A program made the position numbers and the translations under genes. A model generated the notes under the pieces. The model ran no database searches. It had not been told where the DNA came from and saw only the letters and a list, made by a program, of their open reading frames with translations. Shown in pieces: positions 20,591-51,636 of a DNA stretch of 64,000 nt; position 1 is the first letter of the stretch; every line of letters begins with the position of its first letter. Location: IMG/VR virus record IMGVR_UViG_3300020576_007358; one strand, 5' to 3'. Source of the stretch: a virus.

Positions 20591-21815
20591 ACCTGCTAAG
20601 GTTGTTGCGGGTGAAGAACCTGCAAAGAAGAAAGCTGCAAACAGTGACGTTGACGATCTTACGACTGAGATCATCAAGTCCATCAACAAAGAATTCGGTC
20701 AACGAGTAGCGTACAACCTGTCAGTAGACGAAGCGCCTACTAACGTGAAGCGCTGGTTGGACACTGGCTCTATTCAACTGAACTATGCTATCAGAAATGC
20801 TGCTGGAGGTGGTTATCCTGAAGGTCGAGTCATCGAGATTTCTGGACCGCCATCGATAGGAAAATCACACCTAGCGTACCACGCTGCTGCTATCGTCCAG
20901 GGAATGGGTGGACTAGTAGTTTACATCGATACTGAGAATGCAACGCCAGTTGAGAAGCTTAAGAACGTTGGCATCAACGTTGCAAAGAGGTTCGTGTACT
21001 GCGATGCACATTGCACTGAAGAAGTATTTTCGATCATCGAATCAACTATCTTGAAGGCAAAGCAAGTCATGGACAAGAATGTTCCAATTCTTGTCATATG
21101 GGACTCAGTAGCGGCTACGTCACCAAAGGCCGAGCTAGATGGTGATTACGATCAGAACACTGTTGGTTTGCAAGCCAGGGTCATCAGCAAAGGCATGAGA
21201 AAGATCACTGGTGTGATCGGTCAGAATAACGTGACCCTGCTGTGCCTCAACCAACTTCGAACTGCTATCGGCGTGACGCATGGAGATCCAGACATCACTC
21301 CGGGCGGAAAATCGATTCCTTACCATGCAACGCTCAGAATCAGGCTTTCTTCCGGAACGCAAGTTAAGGATAACAGCGGCAATGTCATAGGCATCCATGT
21401 TATCATGACAACAAAGAAGAACAAAGTCGCACCTCCTTTCAGGAAGTACGAATTTGATGTCATCTTTGGCAGAGGAATTTCTGAGCACACTTACATCTTT
21501 GACGAACTTCGATCACACTGTGAAAAGAACGCCGTGACGATCGATCACAAGGACAGCAAAGGAAACGTTGAAAAGCTTCAGATCTCAATTGAAGGCGTCT
21601 CCGCCTGGAGAACGTTGAAGGTTTTCAGCACCGTGACTGGAGAAGTTCTCATCGAGAAGAAGTTCCAAAAGAACAATTTTGATGAGATAATGGCAGATCC
21701 AGTGTATAAGCCATTCATTGACAAAGCTATAGAAGACGCGTACATCATCCATGGTGGTGATCCAGATTCGTCTGGTGAATCACCTTCGGAAGAAGAGGTC
21801 CTCGATGAAAGTTGA
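20583..21815 (+). CDS. UvsX/RecA-family recombinase.
   Basis: Walker A GPPSIGKSHLAYH and RecA-like core. Confidence 0.65.
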   Translation: MAKPAKVVAGEEPAKKKAANSDVDDLTTEIIKSINKEFGQRVAYNLSVDEAPTNVKRWLDTGSIQLNYAIRNAAGGGYPEGRVIEISGPPSIGKSHLAYHAAAIVQGMGGLVVYIDTENATPVEKLKNVGINVAKRFVYCDAHCTEEVFSIIESTILKAKQVMDKNVPILVIWDSVAATSPKAELDGDYDQNTVGLQARVISKGMRKITGVIGQNNVTLLCLNQLRTAIGVTHGDPDITPGGKSIPYHATLRIRLSSGTQVKDNSGNVIGIHVIMTTKKNKVAPPFRKYEFDVIFGRGISEHTYIFDELRSHCEKNAVTIDHKDSKGNVEKLQISIEGVSAWRTLKVFSTVTGEVLIEKKFQKNNFDEIMADPVYKPFIDKAIEDAYIIHGGDPDSSGESPSEEEVLDES

Positions 21816-22326
21816 AGTTCTCTACGATGGCCCAGCCGCCCCAGAGTACAAGACGCTCGGAGCGGCTGGGTGTGATCTGTACGCTGACGAACACCAGATC
21901 GTCCTCGCTGGAAAGACGACGATCATCTCTACGGGACTTCGGCTAGCGATCCCAGAAGGATACGAAGGTCAAGTCAGGTCAAGATCAGGTCTTGCAACGA
22001 AAGGCGTGTTCGTTCTGAACTCTCCTGGTTGCATTGATTGTTTTTCGGGTGATTCGAAGATTAGTACTCTTAATGGAAAAATGAGCATACATGATCTTCG
22101 AATCAATGATCATATTCATTCATTCAATGAATCAACGCATGAAATAGAAAGTGATATTGTCACTGCCATTGTTGATGTGGGCGTAAGAGATGTTATCATT
22201 TTTCGCCTAGATGATAATACTACAATGTCTTTGACACCTGGAACGCTTGTATATACTAGCGCCGGCTTGAAGAGAGCTGATCAATTGACGTCATCTGATG
22301 AAATACTGGTTGACCATGATAGTTAG
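21805..22326 (+). CDS. dut: dUTPase N-terminal piece (motifs 1-3, ...VLNSPGCID) fused to an intein N-half (starts CFSGDSKIS at 22039) and ending in a stop.
   Basis: dUTPase motifs AGCDLY, RSG and NSPG.ID. Intein block A at C+1. ATG 21805 overlaps the RecA stop. Confidence 0.6.
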   Translation: MKVEVLYDGPAAPEYKTLGAAGCDLYADEHQIVLAGKTTIISTGLRLAIPEGYEGQVRSRSGLATKGVFVLNSPGCIDCFSGDSKISTLNGKMSIHDLRINDHIHSFNESTHEIESDIVTAIVDVGVRDVIIFRLDDNTTMSLTPGTLVYTSAGLKRADQLTSSDEILVDHDS

Positions 22327-22331
22327 TTATC

Positions 22332-23267
22332 ATGGTCAAATGTTTGATATGCAACGTTGAAAAACCCTATTCTATCGTTGAACATCTACGTTGTAAGCAC
22401 AAATTGTCAGTTGAAGCTTATCGTAAACAATTTGCCAACGCAGAAGTGAAATCTGCGTTGGCAATTGAAGCCATTTCTAAGCAACATAAGCTTGTTTGGC
22501 AAGATGAATCATACAAGCAAAAGATGCGTGCGTCTCGACAACGCACGCATCGTACAGATGAATTTCGTAAAAAACAATCTGATATCATTAAAAGTACATA
22601 CGCCCATGGGCATAGAACTTGGAATGATGGTCTGACAAAAGATTCGGATGAAAGACTGTCTTTGATTGGAAAAAAGAATTCAGAACATTTGACAGGCAGA
22701 ACAAAAGATACACATGATTATCTTAAAGGAAAAAGTGTTTTCATGAAGAAATTTCATGAGGATAATCCCGGTGTCTTTGTTCATAATAGAATTAATTGGT
22801 CAGAAGAACGAATAAAAGAATGGAAGGAAAAAATAAGTTCATCAGTTTGTGAAGCTTACCATGATGGCAGATGTGGCAGTTCATATCGATATATCAAAGG
22901 TTGGTTCGAAACGAAAGATTCTAAAAGAGAACATTATGATTCATCATGGGAACTTTCTTTGATGGAATTCTTGGAATCATTGAATGTTACGTGGACAAAA
23001 GCACATCGAATTACGATTGATTATCAATTTAATGGTAATAGAAGATACATTCCTGATTTTTTGATATCTTGGCGTGGTAAAAATTTGCTGCTTGAATTGA
23101 AGGGTTATGTTTCATCACAGATTGAACTTGATGAAAAAACTCAAGCAGCTAAAATTTGGTCAGAGAAACAAAACATGTGTTTTTCACTGTGTCATAGCGT
23201 AAACGAAGCAAAAGATGTCATTTGTAAATTTATGACGGAGGCAAATGAAACTAGCAAAAATTGTTAA
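22332..23267 (+). CDS. Free-standing homing endonuclease (zinc finger, [10 protein letters not shown] repeats, Vsr-like core) lying between the two dUTPase/intein pieces.
   Basis: ORF track. Same family as the other Vsr-like HEs. Confidence 0.55.
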
Positions 23268-23700
23268 TATTGAGCGTTCTACTGATCGTTGTTATGATTT
23301 GACCGTTGAAAACAATCATAATTTTTTCTGTAATGATGTTCTGATTCATAACTGTGATTACAGAGGCGTTGTGAAAGTCATATTGCACAACGTAGGGTCA
23401 TCGACATTTACTGTCAACAAAGGAGATAGGATAGCCCAGCTTGTAATTACGCCGATTATTCGAGCGTCATTCTCGCACTCTCGTGAGCTGCCAGAAACCG
23501 CTCGTGGAGCCGGTGGGTTTGGTTCAACTGGTACGTTAACTGATCTGTACTTGGGTCTTTGCGTTGATTACAGTTCAACATCTCTACATAAGGTGTTAAA
23601 TGGACGAAAAATCAACGCAAAGACCCATTTTGATTGTGGATTCTCTCAATCTCTTCGTGCGTTCATACGTTGCGTTTCCTGCAATGAACGTCAATGGTGA
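23245..23700 (+). CDS. dut: Intein C-half (36 aa, ...[13 protein letters not shown]) fused to the dUTPase C-terminal piece (CDYRGVV...[10 protein letters not shown]).
   Basis: Intein blocks F/G end in HN followed by Cys+1. dUTPase motifs 3 (tail), 4 and 5 follow. Start overlaps the HE stop. Confidence 0.6.
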
Positions 23701-24583
23701 AGCCACTGGAGGGTGCGTTGGATTCTTGAAAACGCTTCGCAAGCTTGTCAATGAGTATTCACCATCAGCTGTATACCTTGCATGGGAAGGTGGTGGATCG
23801 CAGAGAAGAAGAGCTCTGTTCTCAGAATACAAGATGAATCGACGACCAGAGAAGTTGAATCGATTCTATGAAGATGATTTGCCTGACTCTGAAGAGAATC
23901 GCCAACACCAGTTGATAGTGCTGCTGGGTTTGATGAAGTTCATCCCAGCGTGTCAACTTTACGTCTCTGATTGTGAAGGCGATGATCTTGTAGCTTACCT
24001 TGCGCGGCAAAAGTTTAAGAACGTTGACAAGATCATCGCTTCATCTGACAAAGATATGTACCAGCTCCTTGATGAGCGGACGAAGATTTACAGTTTTCAC
24101 AAGAAGATCATAATCACTGGTGATGACATCTTGAATGAGTACAAGATCAAGCCGGGAAACTTTGGTCTAGCGAAAGCGCTGTGCGGTGATCCGTCTGACA
24201 ACATCCCTGGATTGAAGGGATTTGGGTTCAAGACAGCATCTCGCGTTCTTCCATTCTTGCAGCTTCAAGATGACATTCTTGTCAGCGATGTGATCGACTA
24301 CTGCAATTCACACTATGACGAGTCAAAGTTGTACCAACGTGTTGTCGAGAATCAGGATCTTTTGAAGAGAAATTGGCGCCTTGTTCATCTAGATGGCAGC
24401 ATGCTGTCCGCTGCTCAGGCTTCCAAAGTAGATCAATTGATCAGTACATACGTCCCACGTAGTGATAGGATCAGCTTTACTCGAGGGCTTATGAAGGAAG
24501 GCATCAATGATTTTGATGTTGCTGATTTCTTCATGACCTTCAACTGCATCGAGAACGTGGAAAATAGGACTAAAGAAAAATGA
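23600..24583 (+). CDS. RNase H / 5'-3' exonuclease (FEN family).
   Basis: [17 protein letters not shown]-terminus and acidic clusters typical of T4 RNase H and Pol I 5'-nuclease. Confidence 0.6.
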
Positions 24584-25368
24584 ACGATGACATCAAGCCG
24601 ACAACGCAAGCTTCATTCGCACAGTATGGAAAGTCCTTCCAAGAAAAGCTGTGCCAAGCGCTGCTCGTTGACAAGCAGTTTGCTGAGCAGATGCTGGAGG
24701 TCTTTAACGTAACGTACCTAGAGCCAAAATACTTGGTGTTTCTTGCTGAACGTTATTTTTCGTACGCTCAGAAGTACAAGGTGTTTCCAACGATGCAGTT
24801 GCTCATCACGATCATCAGAGACGAGCTAAAGATTGGAACTGACGTTGTCATCAGAGATCAGATAGTAGATTACTTGCAACGCATGCGCTCTAATCCTGAC
24901 GTTGGAGATCTTCAGTACGTCAAGGAAAAGGCGCTAGATTTCTGCAGGAAGCAAGCGTTGCGCAGCGCTCTTGAAGAAGCGGTTGATCAGATACAGGCAG
25001 AGAAGTATGAATCGATCGTTGAAGGCATCAAGAAAGCAGTGATGGTCGGAACTGCTCCGCAGTTGGGTCATGACTTCTTTGCCGATTACGAGAGTCGCTT
25101 CACCAAGCTGTCGAGGAATGCAATTGCTACAGGTCTTCCAGAGCTAGATAAGAAAGACATCTTGAACGGTGGGTTGGGATCAGGTGAGCTAGGTTGCGTT
25201 GTTGGTGCGACTGGAACAGGAAAGTGTGTACATCGTGATACTTACATTCAGGTAAAATATACTGGAGTGAGAATTGATGGAAAACTATACAAGCCTTGGG
25301 ATCGAATTGCAACAAGGCGTGGAATCATCTTTGCTAGAGACGTCGTCGAATCAGATGAACTTGAGTGA
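24580..25368 (+). CDS. DnaB/gp41-like replicative helicase N-terminal piece, ending in P-loop GATGTGK, followed by an intein N-half (CVHRDTYIQ..., 47 aa) and a stop.
   Basis: Walker A is interrupted exactly at the GK|S position by Cys+1, the classic DnaB P-loop intein site. Confidence 0.6.
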   Translation: MNDDIKPTTQASFAQYGKSFQEKLCQALLVDKQFAEQMLEVFNVTYLEPKYLVFLAERYFSYAQKYKVFPTMQLLITIIRDELKIGTDVVIRDQIVDYLQRMRSNPDVGDLQYVKEKALDFCRKQALRSALEEAVDQIQAEKYESIVEGIKKAVMVGTAPQLGHDFFADYESRFTKLSRNAIATGLPELDKKDILNGGLGSGELGCVVGATGTGKCVHRDTYIQVKYTGVRIDGKLYKPWDRIATRRGIIFARDVVESDELE

Positions 25369-26458
25369 TAAATTCAAGTGTCAATATTGTTGTCAGCAAT
25401 ACAACAATCAATCTGGGTTGATCACGCATATTCGACGCAAGCATTCAACAACATTCACAGATTACAAGTTGAAATTTTCTCATCTTTACAAAGTTGAAAA
25501 AAGAGAAAAAAAACTTAGTCTAAATGAACTAGCTAGACGTAAACGTGATGAAAAAGCTATTGATGATGGACTTCAAGTTTTGAAGTGTGAAATTTGCAAT
25601 TATGAATCTTACTACAGTTTGATATCGCACATCGTAAGAAAACACGGTGTGGCTATGAATGAATATCGATCAAATTTCCCTTCAGCAGTTGTACAGCAAG
25701 TTACATCAGATGTCAGAGAAAAAAATAGAAAGAATGCAACGTTGCATCTTTCAGATCCTATCAAGAAAGCGAATTTTCTAAAACGAAGATCTTTTCCTTC
25801 TGAGATGAAACACTGGATCAATAAGGGATTTTCATCAGACGAAGCAAAGAAAAAAGTTGCTGAATTTCAACAAGCGATTGCGCTTAAAGGTAATAATGAA
25901 AAAACGAAGGCAAAACAGTCAATTAGAAATTCTGGTCAAAATAACCCAATGTCATTGACATCAATTTCGAAACGTCTTAACGTTTCGAAGGATGACGCAA
26001 GCAAATTGACACCGTGTTATGGAAGATCAGGCATCAAACATCCGATGTTTGGTAAAAAACACAGTATTGAAGCTTTGAACAAAATTGGTCAACACATTAA
26101 TCACACCGGACGTTCGAAAATCGAACACGAAATGTCTGATCTGATCATTTCATTGTATGGTGGTCTAAAGAACGTAGGAGTAAATGGTTGGTGCTGTGAT
26201 TACGTTAATCACGATCGTCAGATTATAGTTGAATTTTTTGGTGATTATTGGCATCACAATCCGGAAAAATATGATAGAAATTTTGTCAACAACTTTACTA
26301 AACGTTCATCTGAAGAAGTTTGGTTGCGTGATGCACGCAAATTGAATGAACTTAGAGAGAGCGGCTTTAACGTTGTTGTGATATGGGAATCTGATTGGCG
26401 AAACAAAAAAGAAGACAGTTTGAACAGGATAAAAGATGCTTTCAATAGAACATTGTGA
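25355..26458 (+). CDS. Free-standing homing endonuclease (C2H2 zinc fingers, Vsr-like core EFFGDYWH...VVIWESDW) between the helicase pieces.
   Basis: ORF 25274..26458. ATG 25355 (MNLSDKFKCQYC) overlaps the intein-N stop. Confidence 0.55.
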   Translation: MNLSDKFKCQYCCQQYNNQSGLITHIRRKHSTTFTDYKLKFSHLYKVEKREKKLSLNELARRKRDEKAIDDGLQVLKCEICNYESYYSLISHIVRKHGVAMNEYRSNFPSAVVQQVTSDVREKNRKNATLHLSDPIKKANFLKRRSFPSEMKHWINKGFSSDEAKKKVAEFQQAIALKGNNEKTKAKQSIRNSGQNNPMSLTSISKRLNVSKDDASKLTPCYGRSGIKHPMFGKKHSIEALNKIGQHINHTGRSKIEHEMSDLIISLYGGLKNVGVNGWCCDYVNHDRQIIVEFFGDYWHHNPEKYDRNFVNNFTKRSSEEVWLRDARKLNELRESGFNVVVIWESDWRNKKEDSLNRIKDAFNRTL

Positions 26459-27677
26459 AGTTGTTGAAGTTGTTAAAGTTGGTGATCTGTTTGCTAGCAT
26501 TGGATTTAATGATGATTCAGTTGCTGATGATTCTGGTGATTCATTTATTCCGAATGAATGGTCAATAGAAGTCAGATCACTTGACACTTTCTATCCTGTA
26601 GATGGTTTTCGTTGGACAAAACCAGAGCAGCAGGTGAAATTGACATATGGCAAAGAATCTTCTTTGCAGTGTTCACCAGAACACATTGTTTTGAAGTATT
26701 CTTCTACAGAAACTCAATGGACAAAAGTTAGTGATCTATCGCCTGGTGATGACATTGTCACTGTTAATGGCATATGCATGATTGATTCGATTGATAATCT
26801 AGAGGAACTTGATCGTCTTTGCGACCTTCAAGTATCAATTGCACATTCTTACTATGCTGACGGTGTGTTGTCACATAATTCTCACTTTCTTACGTTCTTG
26901 GGTGCAATGGCGCTGAGGAACAACGTTGATGTTCTTCACTACACGTTTGAGCTATCAGAGACTCAAGTTGGTATCAGGTATGATTCTAACTTGTGTGACA
27001 TTGATTCGAATGCTGTCATTGACAGCAAGGATCGTATTCTTACTAAGTACGCAGAGCAAAAGCTGGGACGCTTGATCATCAAGTACTTTCCGACGAACAC
27101 AGCTAGCATCTACACGCTTCGAAGTCACATCGAGCGCCTCGGAACGAAGGGTTTCAGGCCAGGATTGATTATCATCGACTATGCTGACATCATGAGATCA
27201 ACTCGTCAGTTCGATTCTTTGAGACACGAGCTTAAGCTCGTTTACGAAGAACTAAGAGGAATGGCTGGTGAGCTAGGAATCCCAGTGTGGACAGCGAGCC
27301 AGAGCAACAAAGAGGGAGCGACAAGCGAGATCATCGACATGGGAAACATGTCTGAAGCTTACGGCAAAGCGATGATCGCTGACGTGATCGTCAGCATCTC
27401 TAGGCGTGCTCACGAGAAGTCAACGGGTCAAGGTCGATTGTACGTTGCAAAGAATCGCGCCGGGCGCGATGGTCTTGTTTATCCGTTGCACATTGACACC
27501 TCAAAGAGCAACTTTGAGATCTTGGGTGGACCGGGTTCTTTGGACGTCGCCATGAAGGAGAACGAATCTGACATCAAGAAAGTTCTTCGTTCAAAGTGGA
27601 ACGAGATGAGAAATGATCCAATCATCGGCGAAAATCTAAAAAGAGGAAGCGATTCTAGCGATGACACGGGTTCTTGA
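26436..27677 (+). CDS. Intein C-part (about 148 aa with blocks B, F, G; ...VLSHN) fused to the helicase C-terminal piece (SHFLTFLGAMAL...).
   Basis: HN|S junction at 26880. Helicase motifs follow downstream (IIDYADIM, SQSNKEG, RAGRDG). Confidence 0.6.
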   Translation: MLSIEHCEVVEVVKVGDLFASIGFNDDSVADDSGDSFIPNEWSIEVRSLDTFYPVDGFRWTKPEQQVKLTYGKESSLQCSPEHIVLKYSSTETQWTKVSDLSPGDDIVTVNGICMIDSIDNLEELDRLCDLQVSIAHSYYADGVLSHNSHFLTFLGAMALRNNVDVLHYTFELSETQVGIRYDSNLCDIDSNAVIDSKDRILTKYAEQKLGRLIIKYFPTNTASIYTLRSHIERLGTKGFRPGLIIIDYADIMRSTRQFDSLRHELKLVYEELRGMAGELGIPVWTASQSNKEGATSEIIDMGNMSEAYGKAMIADVIVSISRRAHEKSTGQGRLYVAKNRAGRDGLVYPLHIDTSKSNFEILGGPGSLDVAMKENESDIKKVLRSKWNEMRNDPIIGENLKRGSDSSDDTGS

Positions 27678-27737: not shown

Positions 27738-30700
27738 ATGAAGACATTTACGTACCAAGAAGCTCGTGATGCATCGGTTGACTATTTTTCTGGTGACACT
27801 CTAGCTGCTGATGTTTTTGTGTCCAAATATGCGTTGCGTGATTCAAATGATCAAGTTCTAGAGAGCACACCAGAAGCCATGCATCGTCGCTTGGCGAAGG
27901 AGTTCGCTAGGATAGAGTTGAACTACAAAAACTCTATTTCGTTCGAAGAGATCATGGAGTATTTCAGCTCTTGGAAGATCGTGCCTCAAGGATCGCCGAT
28001 GTCTGCGATTGGAAACACGAAGCAGATCCAGTCTCTGTCAAATTGCTTTGTCATTGAATCGCCGTACGATTCTTACGGCGGAATCATGAAGACCGACCAA
28101 GAGCAAGCTCAGATCATGAAGCGCCGCGGCGGTGTTGGATTCGACATCTCGTCAATCAGACCAAAGGGATTGGTCACAACTAACGCTGCTCGTACGACCG
28201 ATGGCATCGGTGTTTTCATGGAGCGCTTCAGCAACACTTGCAGGGAAGTTGCGCAAGGCGGTCGCCGTGGTGCTTTGATGATGACAATCTCTGTTCATCA
28301 CCCAGAGATTCGCACGTTCATCAACATCAAGAAGAACGTTGAAAAAGTTACAGGCGCAAACATCTCGATCAGGTTGACTGATGAGTTCATGCGAGCAGTG
28401 AAGGCTGGCGAGAAGTTCCAGCTAAGGTTCCCAGTTGAAGCAAATGCACAGCATACGATCAAAGAAGATGTCGACGCTGGTGAACTGTGGAGTGAGATCA
28501 TTGAGGCTGCTCATGCGTCAGCTGAACCCGGCTTGCTATTTTGGGACAACGTTGTTAATAATGGTCCAGCAGATGCATATCCCGGCTTCAAGTCTATCTC
28601 TACGAATCCCTGCTCTGAGATCGCTCTTTGCGCTTACGATTCGTGCAGATTGCTGCTTCTCAACGTTTCAAAGTTCGTAGAGAATCCTTTCACTGACAGA
28701 GCAAATTTCAACATCAAAGAGTTCAAGAGAGCTGCGTACGTTGCTCAACGCTTGATGGACGACTTGGTTGATCTTGAGCTCGAAGCCGTCGATAGGATCA
28801 TCGACAAGATCAACTCAGATCCAGAACCAGACGACGTAAAGAAGAACGAGCTAGATCTTTGGTTGAAGATCAGGGAAAAAGGTGCCTCGGGCCGTCGCAC
28901 TGGTTTGGGAATCACTGGTCTTGGTGATGCCATTGCGTACGTTGGGTTGAAGTACGGATCAAGGGAATCTATCGATTTTACGGAAGATCTGTATAGAATG
29001 TTGGCTCTTTCTGCGTACCGTTCGTCAGTTGACATGGCGGCAGAACGTGGAGCATTTCCTGCGTTTTCTCACAACGTTGAAGCTGGTCATCCGTTCATTG
29101 AAAAGATCTTGGCACATGATGATGAGCTCAAGGCTGCATACAAGGTTCACGGTCGTCGTAACATTGCCTTGACAACAACTGCGCCCGCTGGATCAGTTTC
29201 AATCCTGACTCAAACAACGTCTGGTTGCGAACCTGTTTTTGCAGTTAGCTACAAGCGCAAGAAGAAGATCAATTCGAACGACGTCACGACCACTGCCAAC
29301 TTTGTTGATGATCTTGGAGATCGTTGGCAAGAGTATACTGTCTACCATCATGGATTGAAGATGTGGATGGATGTGACTGGAAAGACAGAGGCTGATATTG
29401 ATGAATCGCCTTACAAGGGTTCTTCTAGCTCTGAGATCGATTGGCATGCTCGTGTTGACCTTCAAGCCGCAGCCCAAAGATGGATCTGCCATGCAATTTC
29501 CAGCACTGTCAACTTGCCATCAGATACGTCAGTTGAGACAGTTAAAAACATCTACATGCGAGGTTGGGAATCTGGGTGCAAGGGAATCACAGTGTATCGT
29601 GATGGTTGCAGAGCAGGCGTTCTATCGACAGAAGAGAAAAAGCCAAGTATTCAAGGAGCGTCGACCGATGGCTTGAAAGCCCTTCTTGACATTGTAACTA
29701 AGAACGCTGGTAGCATTCCATCAGCTGATTTGTACAAAAAATTGATTGAAGAAGAGCTCACGAGGAGAGAGCCGACTCAACCAGAAAAGGTCGTCGAAGT
29801 TCATGCACCAAAGCGTCCAAAGGAGCTAGAGTGTGATATCCATCGAGTCAACATCAAAGGTGAACAGTATCTTGTCTTCGTCGGATTGCTGAACGGTGTT
29901 CCATACGAAGTCTTTGCTGGTCTGTCAGAACACGTTGAAGTGCCAAAGAAGGTTAAGAAGGGAATCTTGATCAAGAATGGCAAGAAAGACGGTGTTGCAA
30001 CGTACAACCTGAAGATTCCTGTAGGAGATGATGATTTTGTGACGTTCAAAGACGTTGTTAACTTGTTTGACAACCCAACTTACGGTTCGTTCACCAGAAC
30101 GTTGTCTCTAACGTTGAGGCATGGCATCCCGCTTCAGTACATCGTAGAGCAGCTTCGCAAAGACAAGCACAGCGACATGATGTCATTTTCAACTGTCATT
30201 GCTAGGGTCTTGAGCAAGGGTTACATCGTCGATGGAACGAAAGCAACTCAAGAAAAGCAGTGCTCAAGTTGCGGTTCTGATCAGCTAGCGTACATGGAAG
30301 GTTGCCAGACGTGCATGAACTGTGGAAGTAGCAAGTGTTCCTTATACTTAACTCCAAGACGAAAGGTTGATGACGTGAAAATCAAGATCACACCGCAGAT
30401 GCTGAGGCAGCTTGTTAACGAAGAAGTTCTGAACGTGAAGCGCAAGGGAACTTTGAAGGAAGCCTTTGGACCATATGATGCCACTGGCGAGTATGATGAT
30501 AAGGAATACGGCATGCAACCGTGGAACTTTGAAGAGTCACACAGGGAACTGTTTGCTCAGGCGCTTGAACCAGTCATCAATGAGTTCATGGAGTCTTTGG
30601 CCGAGATCGTTGAAAGAGCTTCGCCACCAGATGCTAACATGTCTGCGCAAGATATTGGTAGCGATGAATACAACAGCTTCGGTGAAGACCTCAAAGAAGA

Positions 30701-31118
30701 TCTTTTGAAGGTCATTGCTCAACACATGAAGAATGCGTCTGAAAATTTTGGTCTTTTAGAGGTTAACGTCATGAAGATAAAGCTAAGTGATCTGCGAAAG
30801 ATCATCAGAGAAGTTGCAGTTTCACCTGCTGTCTTCAAGAGCAGCCAACCTGCAAAAGATCCGATGGAGAAGAAGAACATTGTCAAAGCGGTCTCTGATT
30901 TGAAGACAGCGTTCGAATCAGCGCTTCTAAGCAACCTTGTTCTTGCGAACCCAGAGAAGTACGATGAATCCTCGAGAGAATTTGATGATCAGATGTACGA
31001 ATCTCTTAAGACAACAGCGGCCTCAGCATCTGAACAAGTAGCATCAAAGATCAATGATGCAGTTCAGACTGCATGGGTTGCTGCACACAAAAACTCTAAG
31101 GTAAATCACTTAAAGTGA
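27738..31118 (+). CDS. Ribonucleotide reductase, probably class II monomeric NrdJ-like, with a C-terminal zinc ribbon and an additional C-terminal extension of about 250 aa.
   Basis: NPCSEIAL active-site motif. Zinc ribbon CSSCGSDQ...CQTCMNCG. The extension carries two copies of the MKIKLSDLRKII-like peptide. Confidence 0.65.
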   Translation: MKTFTYQEARDASVDYFSGDTLAADVFVSKYALRDSNDQVLESTPEAMHRRLAKEFARIELNYKNSISFEEIMEYFSSWKIVPQGSPMSAIGNTKQIQSLSNCFVIESPYDSYGGIMKTDQEQAQIMKRRGGVGFDISSIRPKGLVTTNAARTTDGIGVFMERFSNTCREVAQGGRRGALMMTISVHHPEIRTFINIKKNVEKVTGANISIRLTDEFMRAVKAGEKFQLRFPVEANAQHTIKEDVDAGELWSEIIEAAHASAEPGLLFWDNVVNNGPADAYPGFKSISTNPCSEIALCAYDSCRLLLLNVSKFVENPFTDRANFNIKEFKRAAYVAQRLMDDLVDLELEAVDRIIDKINSDPEPDDVKKNELDLWLKIREKGASGRRTGLGITGLGDAIAYVGLKYGSRESIDFTEDLYRMLALSAYRSSVDMAAERGAFPAFSHNVEAGHPFIEKILAHDDELKAAYKVHGRRNIALTTTAPAGSVSILTQTTSGCEPVFAVSYKRKKKINSNDVTTTANFVDDLGDRWQEYTVYHHGLKMWMDVTGKTEADIDESPYKGSSSSEIDWHARVDLQAAAQRWICHAISSTVNLPSDTSVETVKNIYMRGWESGCKGITVYRDGCRAGVLSTEEKKPSIQGASTDGLKALLDIVTKNAGSIPSADLYKKLIEEELTRREPTQPEKVVEVHAPKRPKELECDIHRVNIKGEQYLVFVGLLNGVPYEVFAGLSEHVEVPKKVKKGILIKNGKKDGVATYNLKIPVGDDDFVTFKDVVNLFDNPTYGSFTRTLSLTLRHGIPLQYIVEQLRKDKHSDMMSFSTVIARVLSKGYIVDGTKATQEKQCSSCGSDQLAYMEGCQTCMNCGSSKCSLYLTPRRKVDDVKIKITPQMLRQLVNEEVLNVKRKGTLKEAFGPYDATGEYDDKEYGMQPWNFEESHRELFAQALEPVINEFMESLAEIVERASPPDANMSAQDIGSDEYNSFGEDLKEDLLKVIAQHMKNASENFGLLEVNVMKIKLSDLRKIIREVAVSPAVFKSSQPAKDPMEKKNIVKAVSDLKTAFESALLSNLVLANPEKYDESSREFDDQMYESLKTTAASASEQVASKINDAVQTAWVAAHKNSKVNHLK

Positions 31119-31378
31119 AGATAACAGAAGCAGATCTCAGGAAGATCATCTCAGAAGAACTTTTGAGAGGTGTTCCTGAGTTTGTCATACGTCAGGCTTC
31201 AAGCGATTGCGTCGATCGTGTTCGACAGCACGTAACTCGGTTCATCCAGCAAAGAGCAGAGAATCAGACACACGCTCGCGAGCTAACAAAGCTAGCAAAC
31301 CAGCTGCTTGAAGAGCTTGAGGACGAGATGTACGATCTGATCGAAGACAAGCTTCTAGCTTTCGTTCAAAGAACATAG
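31115..31378 (+). CDS. Hypothetical small protein with the shared N-terminal motif MKITEADLRKIISEEL.
   Basis: ORF track. Motif recurrence (see findings). Confidence 0.4.
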   Translation: MKITEADLRKIISEELLRGVPEFVIRQASSDCVDRVRQHVTRFIQQRAENQTHARELTKLANQLLEELEDEMYDLIEDKLLAFVQRT

Positions 31379-32994: not shown

Positions 32995-33282
32995 ATGGAT
33001 AAAACATACAAGCTATCAGATTCAGTTATCGCACGCATTGCACAAATTCTTCAAGAGGGAATCTTGATGGGCGTTGACATCGTTGATCTTCTTCGAATGG
33101 TTGAAGTTGAAACGTTTGGCGAAGAGCTCGTCTTGACGAAGGGTTACGTTGAACGAGTGAAGGCATCTCATGATGATGCACTTGCAAAGGTTGAACAGCT
33201 TAAGTCTGAGAGAAATAAGAGCAGAGTAGTTATCGGTGACTTATGTCTGTGTTTGAAGGTGCCGTTGCAATTCTTCTGCTAA
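32995..33282 (+). CDS. Hypothetical protein; N-terminus weakly resembles the shared motif (YKLSDSVIARIAQILQEG).
   Basis: ORF track. Confidence 0.3.
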   Translation: MDKTYKLSDSVIARIAQILQEGILMGVDIVDLLRMVEVETFGEELVLTKGYVERVKASHDDALAKVEQLKSERNKSRVVIGDLCLCLKVPLQFFC

Positions 33283-44001: not shown

Positions 44002-44229
44002 GTGAGCGGTAAGAAAAAAGCAGAAACGCTGCGGACCACGGTCGGAGAGATTCGATCTGTGGTCCGCAGCCAATTTAGGCTCTTGAATGAAGCCTACGAT
44101 CATGATTTGCTAGATGATCCAGCATTCAATGAAGAATCTATGCTTGTTCCAGATTCGACGAAGGTTCTGATAAAAAAGTACCTAGAGCTGATGGGCCTAA
44201 GTAATAGCAGATCTCACGGTTCAAGTTGA
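44002..44229 (+). CDS. Hypothetical protein.
   Basis: ORF track. Confidence 0.2.
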   Translation: MSGKKKAETLRTTVGEIRSVVRSQFRLLNEAYDHDLLDDPAFNEESMLVPDSTKVLIKKYLELMGLSNSRSHGSS

Positions 44230-44259
44230 GTACAATACTTAGAACGTAGGAGAAGCTTT

Positions 44260-45390
44260 ATGCACGTTAGGTTGAAAGATCTGCAGAACCTCGTAAGCAA
44301 GGTTCTTAATGAGGAAACTGTTCTTAAGGAACTGCGAGAAGAAGTTGCATCGAAGCTGGGTCCATCAGTCAACACTGCTGGTTCGCTCCAGCAAGTTGCT
44401 GAAGAAGCCATCTACAGGTTGGATGTGCTTGCTAGAACCGGTCGCAAGCATGAAATCTTTGATGAGCAGCTTAGCGCAAAGCTATCGACGATGAAATCAT
44501 CTGCTGCACGTGATCTTGCAGCTCGAATGTTGCCAGAACGCAAGCTTTTGAAGCTTGCTACTGATCCATCGCCAGCAGTTCGTCACAGCGTGGCACGTCG
44601 AGTTCCTTTCAAGGTTCTCGTTGAGATGAAGAAGAAGTACAGGAATGACGACGAGCTAAACGTCATCTTTGAGAGCAGGAAGCTAAACGAAGCTGGTTTG
44701 CCGAAGCCAAAGGTTGATGACGAACAGTTTGACATGTACGGCGAAGAAGCTCTTGGCGATGCTGTGAAGCAACGTGATGATATTGAACTGTCTGATCAAT
44801 GGTACGAATCTCTTGCAAGGAAGTTCATCCAAGATTATGGAACGAACCTTGAGGGGCAGTGGGAAGAGCTTCTTGTGAAGAGATACTGCTCTTCTGTTAA
44901 AGCAACGTCTGGCGTTGAAGTTGACATAGAAAAACTTCTGAAGTGTGTTAAAGACTTGCTTGAAGAAAGAGAAGAGCTTCACCTAAAGAGGAACGAGCTT
45001 AAGGAATCTGCTTCCAGGCGTGTTTCACACATGCTGCCTGAGTACGTTGAATCCAAAGATCCAGTGAAAGAACTGTTGCATACAAACTGCTCTGCATCGC
45101 AGTACGTGGCTCTAGCAAAAAGCGTGTTTAAGATCTCTGAGACAATTGCGTCGCACAGCGTTCGTAACGGCAGGCTCAACGAAGGCCTAGACATCAGCAA
45201 CGTTGTTCCTTTCTCTGGACGCTTGCCTTCAAAGGGTGAATTCCGCAACGTTGATGAACGTGCAGTTCAGCGTTACGTTGATTCTTGGAACACGATCCAA
45301 GAGAGCAAGGGTGACATTGTGAAGCTCACGTGGTCGCCGTCTGCTGCGCAGCGTGGAAGATTTACGCTAAAGATTGTGGAAAAGTTATGA
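44260..45390 (+). CDS. Hypothetical protein with the shared N-terminal motif (MHVRLKDLQNLVSKVLNEE).
   Basis: ORF track. Confidence 0.4.
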   Translation: MHVRLKDLQNLVSKVLNEETVLKELREEVASKLGPSVNTAGSLQQVAEEAIYRLDVLARTGRKHEIFDEQLSAKLSTMKSSAARDLAARMLPERKLLKLATDPSPAVRHSVARRVPFKVLVEMKKKYRNDDELNVIFESRKLNEAGLPKPKVDDEQFDMYGEEALGDAVKQRDDIELSDQWYESLARKFIQDYGTNLEGQWEELLVKRYCSSVKATSGVEVDIEKLLKCVKDLLEEREELHLKRNELKESASRRVSHMLPEYVESKDPVKELLHTNCSASQYVALAKSVFKISETIASHSVRNGRLNEGLDISNVVPFSGRLPSKGEFRNVDERAVQRYVDSWNTIQESKGDIVKLTWSPSAAQRGRFTLKIVEKL

Positions 45391-45941: not shown

Positions 45942-46474
45942 AAAAAGTTCAACGAAGCCTGTCTCCGCTTGAATTTGCAGCTGCTAAGTCTTTCCATCTA
46001 AAAGTAGTCTGTCATTCTCGACGACCGTACTTGATCACTAAGTGGAGGCGCATGCCAAAGAGCTCGGAAGCATTGACATGTTGGTGCACTAAAGATCCTC
46101 ACTTCGGCAAAGTGTATATCACGCTAAAGTATACGGTGGACGTTCCACCACAATCTATAAAGAAAGGTCGCCCTATCACGAGAAAAACATGGCTCGTGAC
46201 GTTGGGTTCTGAACCGTTCGAGTACAAACCAGATTGTGATTCTGTGGTCTTCAAACGCTACGTGATCAGCAATGAAGAAACAAGGGTTGAGCTCGTCCAG
46301 CATGCATTGTCCAACCAGATGTTTGCTATGTTTGGTATCAACGCCTACAAGACAGACGGTTTTAAGATAACAGAAACAAAGAAGAGGATCGAAGAAACGA
46401 AGCTTGTTGCATCAGTTCCTTCGAAGAATTTGAATCGTGGTAGAGATACTTACACTTGGAAGTTAAACCAATGA
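45905..46474 (+). CDS. Hypothetical protein.
   Basis: ORF track. Confidence 0.3.
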   Translation: MLLAEAKVLFRLKKVQRSLSPLEFAAAKSFHLKVVCHSRRPYLITKWRRMPKSSEALTCWCTKDPHFGKVYITLKYTVDVPPQSIKKGRPITRKTWLVTLGSEPFEYKPDCDSVVFKRYVISNEETRVELVQHALSNQMFAMFGINAYKTDGFKITETKKRIEETKLVASVPSKNLNRGRDTYTWKLNQ

Positions 46475-47166
46475 AGATGAAAATTTCGACTCTCCGGAAC
46501 GTGATCAAGGAAGTTCTTGAGACTGTTGCTGGTCAGGATGACGCCGCTGAGTTTGACGCAGCTCTCGCTGCTTACGCAAACGACTGGAAGAACTTTACTC
46601 GTGAGACACCAGAAGTTGATCCAGTCGAGGCTGCTGAAGCTGCGGCTGATGGTTTCTTTTACGACAACCCGGGCTGGCAGAAGTGGTCGATTGGAACTGG
46701 AATGTCACGTGAAGACATGGCTCAAGCAGTTGTCGATGCCGTGTACAGCGCTATGATGAATGGTCCAGTGACTGAAGCTACAGAAAAAGAAAGTGAGTAC
46801 GGTCGTACGGGCGCTGATCCTGGTCCGTACCCAACGCCAGAAAATTTTTGGGTTAACCGTCGTGACGGCAACGGTTCCTACGATGCGAAACGCCGCTGGG
46901 GTCCTAACCCACCTCCGGGTGCCAAATACGAAGAGTCGTTTGATGACGGTCATCTTAAGCCAAGGCCAGTAGTCATCAACAATCGTTTCTGGTACGATAA
47001 CATTGAAGTCATGGATGACGACGAGGCCGAGCAGAAGCAAATCATAAATCTAAAGCCTGGTGAGTCGTGGCACACTGGTGGCGGATTCCACGGTAACGGA
47101 TACACGGTAACGAGGGTTTCTTTACCACTTAAGGGCCCACCAAGGCCCACAGATTTAATCTTCTAA
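46456..47166 (+). CDS. Hypothetical protein with the shared N-terminal motif (MKMKISTLRNVIKEVLE).
   Basis: ORF track. Confidence 0.4.
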   Translation: MEVKPMKMKISTLRNVIKEVLETVAGQDDAAEFDAALAAYANDWKNFTRETPEVDPVEAAEAAADGFFYDNPGWQKWSIGTGMSREDMAQAVVDAVYSAMMNGPVTEATEKESEYGRTGADPGPYPTPENFWVNRRDGNGSYDAKRRWGPNPPPGAKYEESFDDGHLKPRPVVINNRFWYDNIEVMDDDEAEQKQIINLKPGESWHTGGGFHGNGYTVTRVSLPLKGPPRPTDLIF

Positions 47167-51620: not shown

Positions 51621-51636
51621 TTATTGGTGGACAACT

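What the first reader, a model, noticed from the sequence alone, without database searches (positions are those of the whole stretch)
30340..31378. Recurrent N-terminal amphipathic peptide shared by unrelated proteins and embedded twice in the RNR C-terminal extension
Motif [MV]K[IL]K[IL]..L[RQ].[IL][IV].E[VE]L occurs as follows.
At the N-termini of:
- 31115 (MKITEADLRKIISEEL);
- 44260 (MHVRLKDLQNLVSKVLNEE);
- 46456 (MKMKISTLRNVIKEVLE);
- the minus-strand ORF at 56266 (MKLQLGALRRLISEVLEDD);
- weakly, 32995.
Internally in the RNR tail:
- at ~30370 (VKIKITPQMLRQLVNEEVL);
- at 30772 (MKIKLSDLRKIIREV), where the ~250-aa tail beyond the zinc ribbon looks like two such modules appended in frame.
A shared leader on otherwise unrelated proteins is reminiscent of phage capsid-targeting or scaffold-docking peptides such as the T4 internal-protein CTS (the ..L.E ending resembles prohead-protease sites). 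It could also be a common interaction handle for a replication factory. No function is assignable from sequence.
Basis: seen in the sequence. Interest (0 to 1): 0.7.

Follow-up and report, generated by a model that had tools for sequence, protein, structure and literature searches.

The report
Shared head-targeting leader on phage proteins
A 16-20 residue N-terminal peptide shared by unrelated proteins of this T4-like phage belongs to a very widespread, apparently undescribed leader motif of uncultured phages, and it most likely addresses proteins to the assembling head; if so, such head-packaged proteins could be read directly from sequence.

Summary
Six copies of M-K-[IL]-x-x-x-x-L-[RQ]-x-[ILV]-[IV]-x-E-[EV]-L separate cleanly from about 19,900 other positions in the window; the "weak" copy at 32995 is not one.

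The two copies inside the RNR tail are fused downstream genes. Sister strains end the RNR before the second copy and encode it as a separate 115-aa gene starting MKIKL. More distant RNRs stop at the zinc ribbon.

The motif is a diverged form of MKITKxQLKxIIKEEL. That leader heads hundreds of small, otherwise unrelated ORFs in environmental viral contigs, often in tandem arrays. No Pfam family, PHROG family or paper was found for it.

Wherever head genes are visible, these phages, including this one, have T4-type genes: portal, S77 (gp21-like) prohead protease and gp23-like capsid protein. Two conserved small genes between protease and capsid gene carry the motif. Every copy contains an [ILV]-x-E site of the kind gp21-type proteases cut. 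In this phage the motif genes share an upstream DNA element with the sheath and scaffold genes.

Best reading (about 0.5): a capsid-targeting propeptide like the T4 CTS, in a new and far more widespread form. Packaging and cleavage are inferred, not shown.

The parts
27738..30341 (+). Ribonucleotide reductase proper, ending at the C-terminal zinc ribbon (...CGSSKCS)
   Evidence: Pfam Ribonuc_red_lgC covers aa 101-620 and lgN covers aa 20-93. The homologs L002 (52% identity) and L065 stop right after the zinc ribbon.
30342..30374 (+). 33-nt former intergenic spacer, now read through as LYLTPRRKVDD. It contains the promoter-like element TTATACTTAAC (30342-30352) and the RBS-like AAAGG (30362-30366), 8 nt before the GTG.
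   Evidence: Sequence. Relatives have a stop codon at this point. ATACTTA lies 31 nt upstream of the GTG.
30375..30770 (+). tail1: a 132-aa module beginning with a GTG codon and a diverged motif (VKIKITPQMLRQLVNEEVL). It is fused to the RNR in every member of the 90% cluster.
   Evidence: A JGI gene call begins at this GTG on a short contig (P0072).
30771..31118 (+). tail2: a 115-aa module starting ATG MKIKLSDLRKIIREV, with GAGG 8 nt upstream. It is a free-standing gene in sister strains and is fused in frame here.
   Evidence: The 1008-aa RNR alleles end ...LLERTS* with TGA overlapping the ATG of a separate 115-aa gene (L005-L008). A frame-changing indel lies in the last ~25 nt of tail1.
31115..31378 (+). 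o31115: 87-aa helical protein with the N-terminal motif (V/M)KITEADLRKIISEELL
   Evidence: 22 bits with the independent HMM. The L065 ortholog directly follows a tail-less RNR and keeps the motif. The AF2 model has helices at 5-24, 30-49 and 54-86, mean pLDDT 70.
44235..45390 (+). o44260: 376-aa protein with the diverged motif MHVRLKDLQNLVSKVLNEE, preceded by AATACTTAG (44234-44242) and the RBS AGGAG
   Evidence: A 16-member cluster of near-identical proteins all keep the N-terminus.
46446..47166 (+). o46471: 231-aa protein starting at ATG 46471 with the motif MKMKISTLRNVIKEVLE, preceded by GATACTTAC (46445-46453)
55763..56280 (-). o56266: 167-aa protein (55763-56266) with the motif MKLQLGALRRLISEVLE, preceded by GATATTTAC about 13 nt upstream of the ATG. 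It is convergent with, and overlaps, the 3' end of the pol III alpha ORF.
   Evidence: It is called as a gene on more than 20 contigs, and in sister strains the pol ORF is 60 aa shorter.

Best explanation
The motif is the N-terminal address label (propeptide) of proteins that are built into the scaffolding core of the prohead. The phage belongs to a large clade of uncultured myoviruses with T4-type head genes.

Proposed structure and mechanism:
- Residues 1-4 (M-K-I/L-T/K) are extended and end in a helix N-cap. Residues about 5-20 form an amphipathic helix with its hydrophobic face at L8, I11, I12, L16 and L19/20.
- This helix docks the carrier onto the core (scaffold protein or the inner face of the capsid protein) while the shell assembles.
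- The gp21-family (S77) prohead protease then cuts after the conserved Glu of [ILV]-x-E, at position 14 of the motif.
- The cut frees either a cargo that stays in the head and is ejected with the DNA, or core fragments that leave the head.

The many unrelated, fast-evolving C-terminal parts are the cargoes. This is analogous to the T4 internal proteins, which share only their capsid targeting sequence.

The two copies inside the RNR are not part of the enzyme. They are two such cargo genes lying downstream of the RNR that became fused to it: the first by loss of the RNR stop codon, the second by a frame-changing indel. Both keep a start codon and an RBS-like sequence. The first also keeps the promoter-like element, so they can probably still be made as separate proteins.

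Shown:
- the motif is real and under peptide-level selection;
- its spread in viral contigs;
- the split/fused polymorphism;
- the T4-type head genes;
- the motif on conserved head-module genes.

Inferred:
- docking to the core;
- cleavage;
- packaging and ejection;
- late expression.
For: 1. Leader architecture. Carriers share no significant, consistent similarity beyond the motif. In 199 non-redundant IMG/VR instances, conservation extends to about residue 22 and then collapses into G/D/P/E-rich sequence. Synonymous codons vary freely, so selection acts on the peptide.

2. Spread.
- There are 207 regex instances in 1 Mb of those loci. 168 have 20 or fewer open codons upstream. The median length from motif to stop is 102 aa.
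- The same pattern finds only 18 stretches in 596 Gb of bacterial and archaeal genomes. All but one lie in MAG contigs, at least two of which carry tandem arrays of 7-10 motif genes per 8 kb.

3. T4-type head machinery.
- A contig that is 99% identical to the window in the RNR (IMGVR_UViG_3300033121_002020) encodes a portal, an intein-split S77/gp21-family protease, a scaffold-like 628-aa protein and a gp23-like capsid protein.
- The window and its upstream flank encode a sheath, a gp19-like tube and a T4_baseplate protein.
- 35-40 of the 120 motif-found loci contain a terminase and portal, and 23 contain the protease. These are 50-70% identical to those of this phage.

4. Motif on conserved head-module genes.
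- Between protease and capsid gene lie protein A (157 aa..KISRSQLKQLVKECLVEIL) and protein B (85 aa, MKLTTQLLKSIIEEEV).
- Take the 48 capsid-anchored loci that have at least 4.6 kb upstream; these were chosen without regard to the motif. 30 have a motif hit 2.0-4.5 kb upstream of the capsid gene. 40 of the 70 plus-strand hits in these loci fall between -3.5 and -2.5 kb.

5. Cleavage logic.
- Every copy has [ILV]-x-E ending at position 14. The diverged copies have it at 16 or 18, and protein A (whose motif starts 5 residues in) at 18.
- The capsid protein keeps an invariant VL[KR]E just before its mature-like region.
- S77-family proteases cut after Glu, and T4 head propeptides are 10-20 residues long (PMC5694885).
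- The T4 CTS is MKTYQEFIAE and is cut once (10.1101/2021.01.19.427310). T4 internal proteins are diverse and share only the CTS (PMC3012670).

6. Co-regulation hint in this phage. The element (G/T/A)ATA(C/T)TTA(C/A) lies 14-34 nt upstream of the scaffold gene, the sheath gene, a 158-aa gene just downstream of the capsid gene (separated by a 267-aa ORF), and the 113-aa motif gene. That is 4 of its 5 occurrences in 40 kb. It also lies 13-31 nt upstream of tail1, o44260, o46471 and o56266, but not upstream of the RNR, ThyX, gp32-like or PNK genes.

7. Fusion. The RNR has 1126-aa and 1008-aa alleles, each found in several independent assemblies. The 1008-aa allele is followed by a separate 115-aa gene.
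Against: - No experimental evidence exists for packaging or cleavage, and no cultured phage with the canonical motif was found.
- There is no detectable sequence homology to the T4 CTS, gp67, gp68 or gp22.
- Cargoes are on average acidic (net -0.05 per residue), whereas the T4 internal proteins are basic.
- Some carriers are enzymes that need not be in virions: an AAA_33 kinase by Pfam and a DEDD-exonuclease-like protein judged by eye only.
- The motif also occurs internally and near C-termini, in some cases without a preceding Met.
- Bacterial membrane proteins carry 6-8 internal repeats of a very similar peptide. The helix may therefore be a more general interaction module.
- The upstream DNA element is not enriched before motif genes in other lineages. 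Calling it a 'late promoter' rests only on its association with structural genes.
- Three of the six window copies are too diverged for the independent HMM.
Confidence: 0.5

Rival explanations
1. The motif is a generic interaction or oligomerisation helix. On this view it is a short, self-sufficient amphipathic helix (a dimerisation or partner-binding handle) that a fast-evolving family of small phage proteins inherited by duplication and fusion. It has no role in capsid targeting or proteolysis.
For: - Tandem arrays, and multi-copy proteins whose internal copies keep the Met, point to duplication and fusion.
- Very small proteins consist of little more than one or two motifs (P0090, P0092).
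- Bacterial membrane proteins carry 6-8 internal repeats of a similar peptide.
- Internal and C-terminal copies exist.
Against: - It does not explain why the free N-terminus (M-K at residues 1-2, start codon at a fixed distance) is so strongly kept.
- It does not explain why an [ILV]-x-E is kept at a fixed position.
- It does not explain why two conserved genes between the prohead protease and capsid genes carry the motif.
- It does not explain why the canonical form is almost confined to one clade with T4-type heads.
Confidence: 0.2
2. The motif is a docking tag for a hub other than the capsid. It would recruit the carriers to a replication or nucleotide-synthesis complex, or to a host factor such as a chaperone, protease or polymerase.
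For: - In the window the copies lie among nucleotide-metabolism and replication genes: next to the RNR, ThyX and pol III alpha.
- Some carriers elsewhere are nucleic-acid enzymes: an AAA_33 kinase by Pfam and an exonuclease-like protein judged by eye.
Against: - Other copies in the same phage lie between the sheath and tube genes and inside the head module.
- About a third of motif-found loci include a terminase and portal.
- The RNR association is an accident of gene fusion and is absent in relatives.
- The upstream element is shared with structural genes, not with replication genes.
Confidence: 0.12
3. The motif marks scaffold-core building blocks only. On this view it marks accessory core or scaffold proteins that are degraded and expelled at maturation, as T4 gp22, gp67 and gp68 are. 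There would be no delivered cargo and no anti-host function.
For: - Proteins A and B are conserved, lie beside the scaffold gene and are acidic. Their sizes (about 140 and 80 aa) match T4 gp68 (141 aa) and gp67 (80 aa).
- The carriers are acidic on average.
Against: - Hundreds of hypervariable carriers, arrays of up to 10 per 8 kb, and carriers with enzyme domains are hard to explain as mere scaffold filler.
- There is no homology to gp67.
Confidence: 0.13
4. The recurrence is due to chance or to a nucleic-acid-level signal, such as a translation-initiation or RNA structure element, rather than to a peptide.
For: The 5' codons are A-rich, as is typical of gene starts.
Against: - The shuffled-proteome and leave-one-out tests exclude chance.
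- All synonymous codons are used at the conserved positions, and replacements are conservative at the amino-acid level.
Confidence: 0.02

Closest known systems
[quoted passage not shown]
   Same: - A short N-terminal leader shared by otherwise unrelated, fast-evolving proteins.
- It starts M-K and ends hydrophobic-I-x-E.
- The phage encodes a gp21-family protease, a gp23-type capsid protein and a scaffold.
- Carriers are scattered in the genome and in arrays.
- Literature.
   Different: - It is 16-22 residues long rather than 10, and has no detectable sequence homology.
- It is far more conserved and widespread: hundreds of carriers across many uncultured phages.
- Cargoes are mostly acidic rather than basic.
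- Copies also occur internally.
- Targeting and cleavage are untested.
T4 prohead core proteins gp67 and gp68
   Same: - Proteins B (about 80 aa, acidic) and A (about 140 aa) are small genes in the portal-protease-scaffold-capsid block.
- Their sizes match gp67 (80 aa) and gp68 (141 aa).
   Different: - hhalign of the B family against gp67 gives a probability of 0.2%.
- The gene order differs: here they lie after the protease, in T4 before it.
- T4 gp67 and gp68 do not carry a shared leader.
N-terminal propeptides of giant-phage (phiKZ, SPN3US) head and ejection proteins, cut by S77-family proteases
   Same: - The protease family is the same, and cleavage is after Glu at a small x-X-E motif.
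- The SPN3US paralogs gp53 and gp54 keep identical 15-residue N-termini while the rest of each protein diverges (PMC5694885).
   Different: - Those propeptides are mostly more than 100 residues long and specific to each paralog.
- They are not one short consensus shared by dozens of unrelated proteins, and their cleavage motif is A/S-x-E.
Class II ribonucleotide reductase with C-terminal zinc ribbon
   Same: Residues 1-868 of the ORF are an ordinary phage RNR.
   Different: The 258-aa tail is not an RNR domain. It is absent in L002 and L065 and is partly a separate gene in sister strains.

Membership tests
T4-type capsid targeting sequence / head-protein propeptide | A short N-terminal leader shared by proteins that are otherwise unrelated | tested here: met
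   There is no significant, consistent similarity between carriers beyond the motif. The leader is at residue 1 in 4 of 6 window copies, and the other 2 retain start codons. The same architecture is seen in 168 of 207 IMG/VR instances.
T4-type capsid targeting sequence / head-protein propeptide | The leader ends in a cleavage site for the prohead protease (hydrophobic-x-Glu) | tested here: met
   An [ILV]-x-E ends at position 14 in most copies, at 16 or 18 in the diverged ones, and at 18 in protein A, whose motif starts 5 residues in. The capsid protein keeps VL[KR]E before its mature-like part. This is sequence evidence only; cutting itself was not tested.
T4-type capsid targeting sequence / head-protein propeptide | The genome encodes a gp21-family (Peptidase_S77) prohead protease, a gp23-type capsid protein and a scaffold | tested here: met
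   L137 comes from a contig that is 99% identical to the window in the RNR. It carries the protease (phrog_207; the same family scores as Pfam Peptidase_S77 in L018), a gp23-like capsid protein and a 628-aa scaffold-like protein.
T4-type capsid targeting sequence / head-protein propeptide | Sequence homology to the T4 CTS (MKTYQEFIAE) | tested here: not met
   Only the M-K start and the hydrophobic-I-x-E end are shared. The motif HMM gives no significant score on the T4 head proteins tested, with gp67 best at 4.2 bits. The T4 ip genes themselves were not scored.
T4-type capsid targeting sequence / head-protein propeptide | Carriers are present in proheads or virions, and the leader is removed | not testable with these tools
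   This needs virion proteomics with N-terminal mapping. No cultured phage with the canonical motif was found.
T4-type capsid targeting sequence / head-protein propeptide | Carriers are expressed together with the head proteins (late) | tested here: inconclusive
   In this phage an ATA(C/T)TTA element is shared by the sheath and scaffold genes and by 5 motif genes (tail1, o44260, o46471, o56266 and the 113-aa gene). It is not enriched before motif genes in other lineages. No expression data are available.
T4 gp67 / gp68 prohead core proteins | Sequence or profile homology | tested here: not met
   hhalign of the B family against gp67 gives a probability of 0.2%. There are no PHROG or Pfam hits for A or B. 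A against gp68 was not tested.
Any curated protein family (Pfam, PHROGs) or solved structure covering the motif | A significant profile match over the motif | tested here: not met
   There were no hits for the window carriers, for the 10 of 19 exhaustive-search hits that were scanned, for 50 IMG/VR carriers, or in the PDB.
Ribonucleotide reductase C-terminal domain | The tail is conserved as part of the enzyme in homologs | tested here: not met
   L002 and L065 end at the zinc ribbon. tail2 is a separate gene in the 1008-aa alleles.

The most novel reading that the evidence does not exclude
The MKITKxQLKxIIKEEL leader is a sequence-readable address label for the whole packaged and ejected protein set of a globally distributed clade of uncultured T4-like myoviruses.

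On this reading, hundreds to thousands of hypervariable ORFans found in marine and freshwater viromes, including enzymes, are proteins delivered into the host together with the DNA. They would be candidate anti-defence or takeover effectors.

The leader could also be used to load foreign cargo into such capsids. The similar repeats in bacterial membrane proteins might then be decoys or an unrelated convergence.
Probability: 0.4. Interest if true: 0.8.

Novelty: new variant of a known kind. Interest (0 to 1): 0.68.

Why it matters
Most genes of environmental phages are ORFans with no clue to their function. A short leader that marks which of them enter the capsid would sort a large class of these genes by cellular fate from sequence alone. 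It would point directly to injected anti-defence and host-takeover proteins. It would also extend the T4 capsid-targeting principle, known from one model phage group, to a widespread uncultured clade.

The finding also gives a clean natural example of gene fusion by stop-codon loss and by frameshift. This explains an odd "C-terminal extension" of an essential enzyme, and it warns against reading such tails as enzyme domains.

Tried and rejected
- Homology between carriers beyond the motif: no significant, consistent similarity.
- Pfam and PHROGs on the window carriers, on 10 of the 19 exhaustive-search hits, on 50 IMG/VR carriers and on the B family: nothing covers the motif.
- PDB profile search: only chance-level hits.
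- Literature search for 12 motif strings: no papers.
- A chimeric query of all carriers against the 5.8-billion-protein index returned only the RNR cluster. Querying o31115 alone returned only near-identical proteins. The word index is not suited to these ORFans.
- tblastn of the consensus peptide and of 28 concatenated carriers against 50,697 GenBank phage records: no match. A motif-only match could not have passed the E-value limit, and low-complexity masking may have interfered.
- RNR tail relatives in IMG/VR: none.
- RNA-level or translation signal: rejected, because synonymous sites vary.
- A seventh copy in the RNR linker insert (SADLYKKLIEEEL): not supported by the HMM.
- 32995 as a member: rejected.
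- Similarity between the capsid protein's N-terminus (MKFSLDQLTQGIRE) and the motif: suggestive by eye, not significant with a strict PSSM.
- B family as a homolog of T4 gp67: rejected.
- The ATACTTA element as a general feature upstream of motif genes in other lineages: not found.
- The closest cultured relative by capsid protein, Flavobacterium phage immuto (44% identity), has only a doubtful diverged variant (gp072, MKKSQIVKAVQEVLEE) scoring below the 8-bit reporting cut-off.

Full report
**1. The observation**

The window encodes a 1126-aa ORF (27738-31118) whose first ~868 residues are a ribonucleotide reductase. Pfam places Ribonuc_red_lgC at aa 101-620 and lgN at aa 20-93. A regex scan and a six-frame PSSM scan find exactly six copies of the motif:
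- RNR aa 880: VKIKITPQMLRQLVNEEVL, GTG at 30375.
- RNR aa 1012: MKIKLSDLRKIIREV, ATG at 30771.
- The 87-aa ORF at 31115, whose GTG overlaps the RNR stop.
- The 376-aa ORF at 44260.
- The 231-aa ORF whose real ATG is at 46471.
- The 167-aa minus-strand ORF starting at 56266.

The statistics are clear.
- In leave-one-out scans each held-out copy ranks among the top six of ~19,900 positions.
- Four copies are never reached in 50 shuffled proteomes. The two most diverged copies, tail1 and o44260, are reached 0.04-0.3 times per proteome.
- With the full matrix the six score 34-39 bits and the next best position scores 7 bits.
- The 'weak' copy at 32995 is not a member.
- The carriers share no significant, consistent similarity beyond the motif.
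- The carriers have no Pfam or PHROG family.

**2. The RNR tail is two fused genes**

The RNR lies in a 90%-identity cluster of 13 sequences from JGI, ENA and Logan assemblies. Several members are 1126 aa like the window. Four are 1008 aa and one is 969 aa. The shorter alleles end '...NNAARTYLLERTS*' at the end of the first tail module.

On four contigs with the 1008-aa allele, the RNR stop (TGA) overlaps the ATG of a separate 115-aa gene, MKIKL(K/S)DLRKIIREV.... That gene is followed by the 87-aa gene. The fused and split alleles differ by a frame-changing indel in the last ~25 nt of the first module. The second embedded copy is therefore the true N-terminus of a free-standing protein in sister strains.

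The first module is fused in all cluster members. More distant RNRs, however, stop right after the zinc ribbon: L002 at 52% identity ('...CGSSKCG*') and L065 ('...CSWSKC*').

In the window the zinc ribbon (TGT TCC) is followed by TTA and a 33-nt stretch (30342-30374). This stretch contains an RBS-like AAAGG 8 nt before the GTG, and the element TTATACTTAAC. That is what a former intergenic spacer would look like after loss of a stop codon.

Both embedded copies keep a start codon and a Shine-Dalgarno-like sequence at the right distance. Separate translation is plausible but remains an inference.

**3. The motif is a diverged form of a very widespread viral leader**

An exhaustive HMMER search used a 20-column profile of the six copies against 1.84 billion representative proteins. 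It gave 19 hits with E < 1e-3. Most hits had 2-8 matched stretches, and many started at residue 1, for example MKITQSQLRKIIREELE and MKITPNDLRRLINEELA.

A back-translated DNA pattern for M-K-I-T-x3-L-[KR]-x-I-I-x-E-E has 27 specified bases (about 43 bits).
- In the 1 Mb fetched around those stretches there are 207 instances.
- 168 of them have at most 20 open codons upstream.
- The median length from motif to stop is 102 aa.
- The remainders are highly diverse.

A 13-kb Tara Oceans contig has at least 8 copies.

The same pattern finds only 18 stretches in 596 Gb of GTDB species genomes. All but one are in MAG contigs from marine, lake, gut and other samples. At least two of these contigs carry arrays of 7-10 motif genes per 8 kb and are probably mis-binned phage DNA.

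Further properties of the family:
- Positions not imposed by the pattern are also conserved: K5, Q7, Q10, K13, L/I16, a hydrophobic residue at 19/20, and E at 21/22. Conservation then collapses into G/D/P/E-rich sequence.
- Synonymous codons vary freely, so the constraint is on the peptide.
- An AF2 model of the 87-aa carrier puts a helix at residues 5-24, right after the K-I-T cap (mean pLDDT 70, single sequence).
- An HMM built from the IMG/VR instances alone recognises o31115, tail2 and o46471. It recognises o56266 only weakly, and it misses tail1 and o44260. These last are diverged members.
- The ortholog of o31115 in L065, directly downstream of a tail-less RNR, keeps the motif (MKLKAKDLRRIIKEEF).
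- No Pfam or PHROG family, PDB entry or paper was found for the motif.

**4. What kind of phage this is**

The window and its upstream flank encode a tail sheath, a gp19-like tube, a T4_baseplate protein and a tape measure protein.

I walked upstream along a contig that is 99% identical to the window in the RNR (IMGVR_UViG_3300033121_002020). This reaches the head module:
- portal;
- a conserved 299-aa protein;
- an intein-split head maturation protease;
- a scaffold-like 628-aa acidic protein;
- a gp23-like capsid protein.

The protease family scores as Pfam Peptidase_S77, 'prohead core protein serine protease', which is the T4 gp21 family. The capsid family scores as Pfam Gp23.

The closest cultured relatives by capsid protein are distant: Flavobacterium phage immuto at 44% identity and Microcystis phage Mel-JY01 at 33%.

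Of the 120 loci found through the motif, 35-40 contain a terminase and portal, and 23 contain the protease. All of these are homologous to those of this phage at 50-70% identity. No other head type was seen.

**5. The motif sits on conserved head-module genes**

Between the protease and the scaffold and capsid genes lie two small genes:
- A: 157 aa, MNSPNKISRSQLKQLVKECLVEIL...
- B: 85 aa, MKLTTQLLKSIIEEEV..., acidic.

I then looked at 80 loci collected by capsid-protein similarity alone (64-100% identity), that is, without regard to the motif.
- The orthologs of A (MKLTKQQLKxIVKECLVEIL.EG) and B (MKLTSxLLKKIIxEEVAKFGDMED) recur at a fixed place.
- 30 of the 48 loci with enough upstream sequence have a hit 2.0-4.5 kb upstream of the capsid gene.
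- 40 of the 70 plus-strand hits in those 48 loci fall between -3.5 and -2.5 kb.

A further motif gene (113 aa, MKITESQLRKLIKEVLKEE) lies between the sheath and tube genes, just outside the window. Their sizes and location recall T4 gp67 (80 aa) and gp68 (141 aa). Homology to gp67 was tested and not found.

**6. Cleavage logic and regulation**

Every copy has [ILV]-x-E ending at motif position 14. The diverged copies have it at 16 or 18, and so does protein A, whose motif starts 5 residues in. The capsid protein of the clade keeps an invariant VL[KR]E about 30 residues before the region that aligns with the mature N-terminal part of T4 gp23.

According to the literature:
- S77-family proteases of T4, phiKZ and SPN3US all cut after Glu at a small x-X-E motif.
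- T4 head propeptides, including the CTS, are 10-20 residues long (PMC5694885).
- The T4 CTS is MKTYQEFIAE and is cut once (10.1101/2021.01.19.427310).
- T4 internal proteins are a diverse set of anti-restriction proteins that share only the CTS (PMC3012670).

In this phage a DNA element (G/T/A)ATA(C/T)TTA(C/A) precedes several genes.
- It lies 14-34 nt upstream of the scaffold gene, the sheath gene, a 158-aa gene just downstream of the capsid gene (separated by a 267-aa ORF), and the 113-aa motif gene. These are 4 of its 5 occurrences in 40 kb.
- It lies 13-31 nt upstream of tail1, o44260, o46471 and o56266.
- It does not lie upstream of the RNR, ThyX, gp32-like or PNK genes.

This suggests co-regulation with the structural genes. 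The element is not enriched before motif genes in other lineages, so this line of evidence is weak and local.

**7. Interpretation**

The best-supported reading is that the motif is a capsid-targeting propeptide. It would dock carriers onto the prohead core and then be cut off by the gp21-type protease, as in T4. It has a distinct, longer and much more widespread consensus than the T4 sequence.

The variable C-terminal parts would be cargo, or core filler. The RNR association is an accident of fusion.

I put this at about 0.5, for five reasons:
- No packaging or cleavage data exist.
- The cargoes are acidic rather than basic.
- Some copies are internal or C-terminal.
- Bacterial membrane proteins carry repeats of a similar peptide.
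- There is no sequence homology to the T4 CTS.

The rivals are:
- a generic interaction helix of a duplicating gene family (0.2);
- scaffold-core building blocks with no delivered cargo (0.13);
- a non-capsid docking tag (0.12);
- chance or an RNA signal (0.02).

**8. Novelty**

The principle, a CTS-like leader, is known from T4. The motif itself, its spread across hundreds of ORFans in an uncultured T4-like clade, and its presence on conserved head-module genes appear undescribed in the libraries and papers I could search.

I rate it a new variant of a known kind, with interest 0.68.

Noticed in passing
P0074, P0079, P0080, P0081; locus L010 6001-8928: These are bacterial multi-pass membrane proteins of 430-975 aa. 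They carry 6-8 internal repeats of LTSDDLRSIIREEI in acidic linkers, plus a conserved, unannotated C-terminal domain. The genes sit in ordinary chromosomal context (CTP synthase, DAG kinase, CNNM). The repeat has the same core as the phage leader. Whether this is homology or convergence is unknown.
   Followed up: partly
L232 (PBIO01000025.1) and L235 (NHDW01000006.1): Contigs of 101 kb and 306 kb binned into marine MAGs ('Halobacteriovorax', 'Methylococcaceae') carry tandem same-strand arrays of 7-10 genes per 8 kb. Each gene starts M[KR]ITKRQLKRIIKEE. These are probably phage contigs mis-binned into bacterial genomes.
   Followed up: partly
window 30344, 43989, 44235, 46446, 25238, ~56273-56280(-); stitched structural contig (L137+L135+L134) coordinates 7907, 12691, 33548, 37544 (= L137:7907 and 12691; L134:13696 and 17692): The element (G/T/A)ATA(C/T)TTA(C/A) lies 13-40 nt upstream of start codons of the sheath gene, the scaffold gene and several motif genes. 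GATACTTAC occurs 4 times in the window against 0.6 expected. It is a candidate late promoter of this phage and differs from the T4 TATAAATA.
   Followed up: partly
window 44002-44229: This 75-aa ORF has a degenerate motif-like stretch (TVGEIRSVVRSQF) 13 residues in. It is preceded by the same upstream element (AATACTTAC). It may be a decayed member of the family.
   Followed up: no
window 21751-23700, 24580-27677, 50826-56059: The dUTPase gene and the DnaE-type DNA polymerase III alpha (PHP + pol3_alpha) gene each appear interrupted by intein and/or homing-endonuclease-like ORFs. The DnaB-type helicase region is interrupted by an endonuclease-like ORF. In relatives, the RNR (L002) and the prohead protease (L137) also carry large intein-like inserts (suggested by extra sequence and a split protease match, not confirmed by a domain hit). 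Several further HNH and GIY-YIG ORFs are present.
   Followed up: no
window 55763-56059: The pol III alpha ORF is 1170 aa here but 1110 aa in sister strains. Its last ~100 codons are antisense to the o56266 gene and do not look protein-like. This appears to be a second case of a read-through extension in this genome.
   Followed up: partly
window ~29700-29830 (RNR aa ~655-700): A ~39-aa insert (PSIQGASTDGLKALLDIVTKNAGSIPSADLYKKLIEEELTRREPT) sits in the linker between the RNR barrel and its C-terminal domain. It is absent in allele P0008 and in L002 and L065. By eye it resembles the motif, but the HMM does not support that.
   Followed up: partly
L137 9872-9920 and capsid genes of L138-L216: The capsid-protein propeptide starts M-K-F-[ST]-L-[DE]-Q-L-x-x-G-I-[RK]-[ED]. 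This is in register with the leader's I-T-x-x-Q-L-x-x-I-I-K-E. It is not significant with a strict PSSM, but it is worth testing as a shared core-binding element.
   Followed up: partly
L218 8460-8681 (Flavobacterium phage immuto gp072): The closest cultured relative by capsid protein has a 73-aa gene near the portal that starts MKKSQIVKAVQEVLEE. This may be a truncated variant of the leader. If so, it offers a route to experiments in a cultured phage.
   Followed up: no
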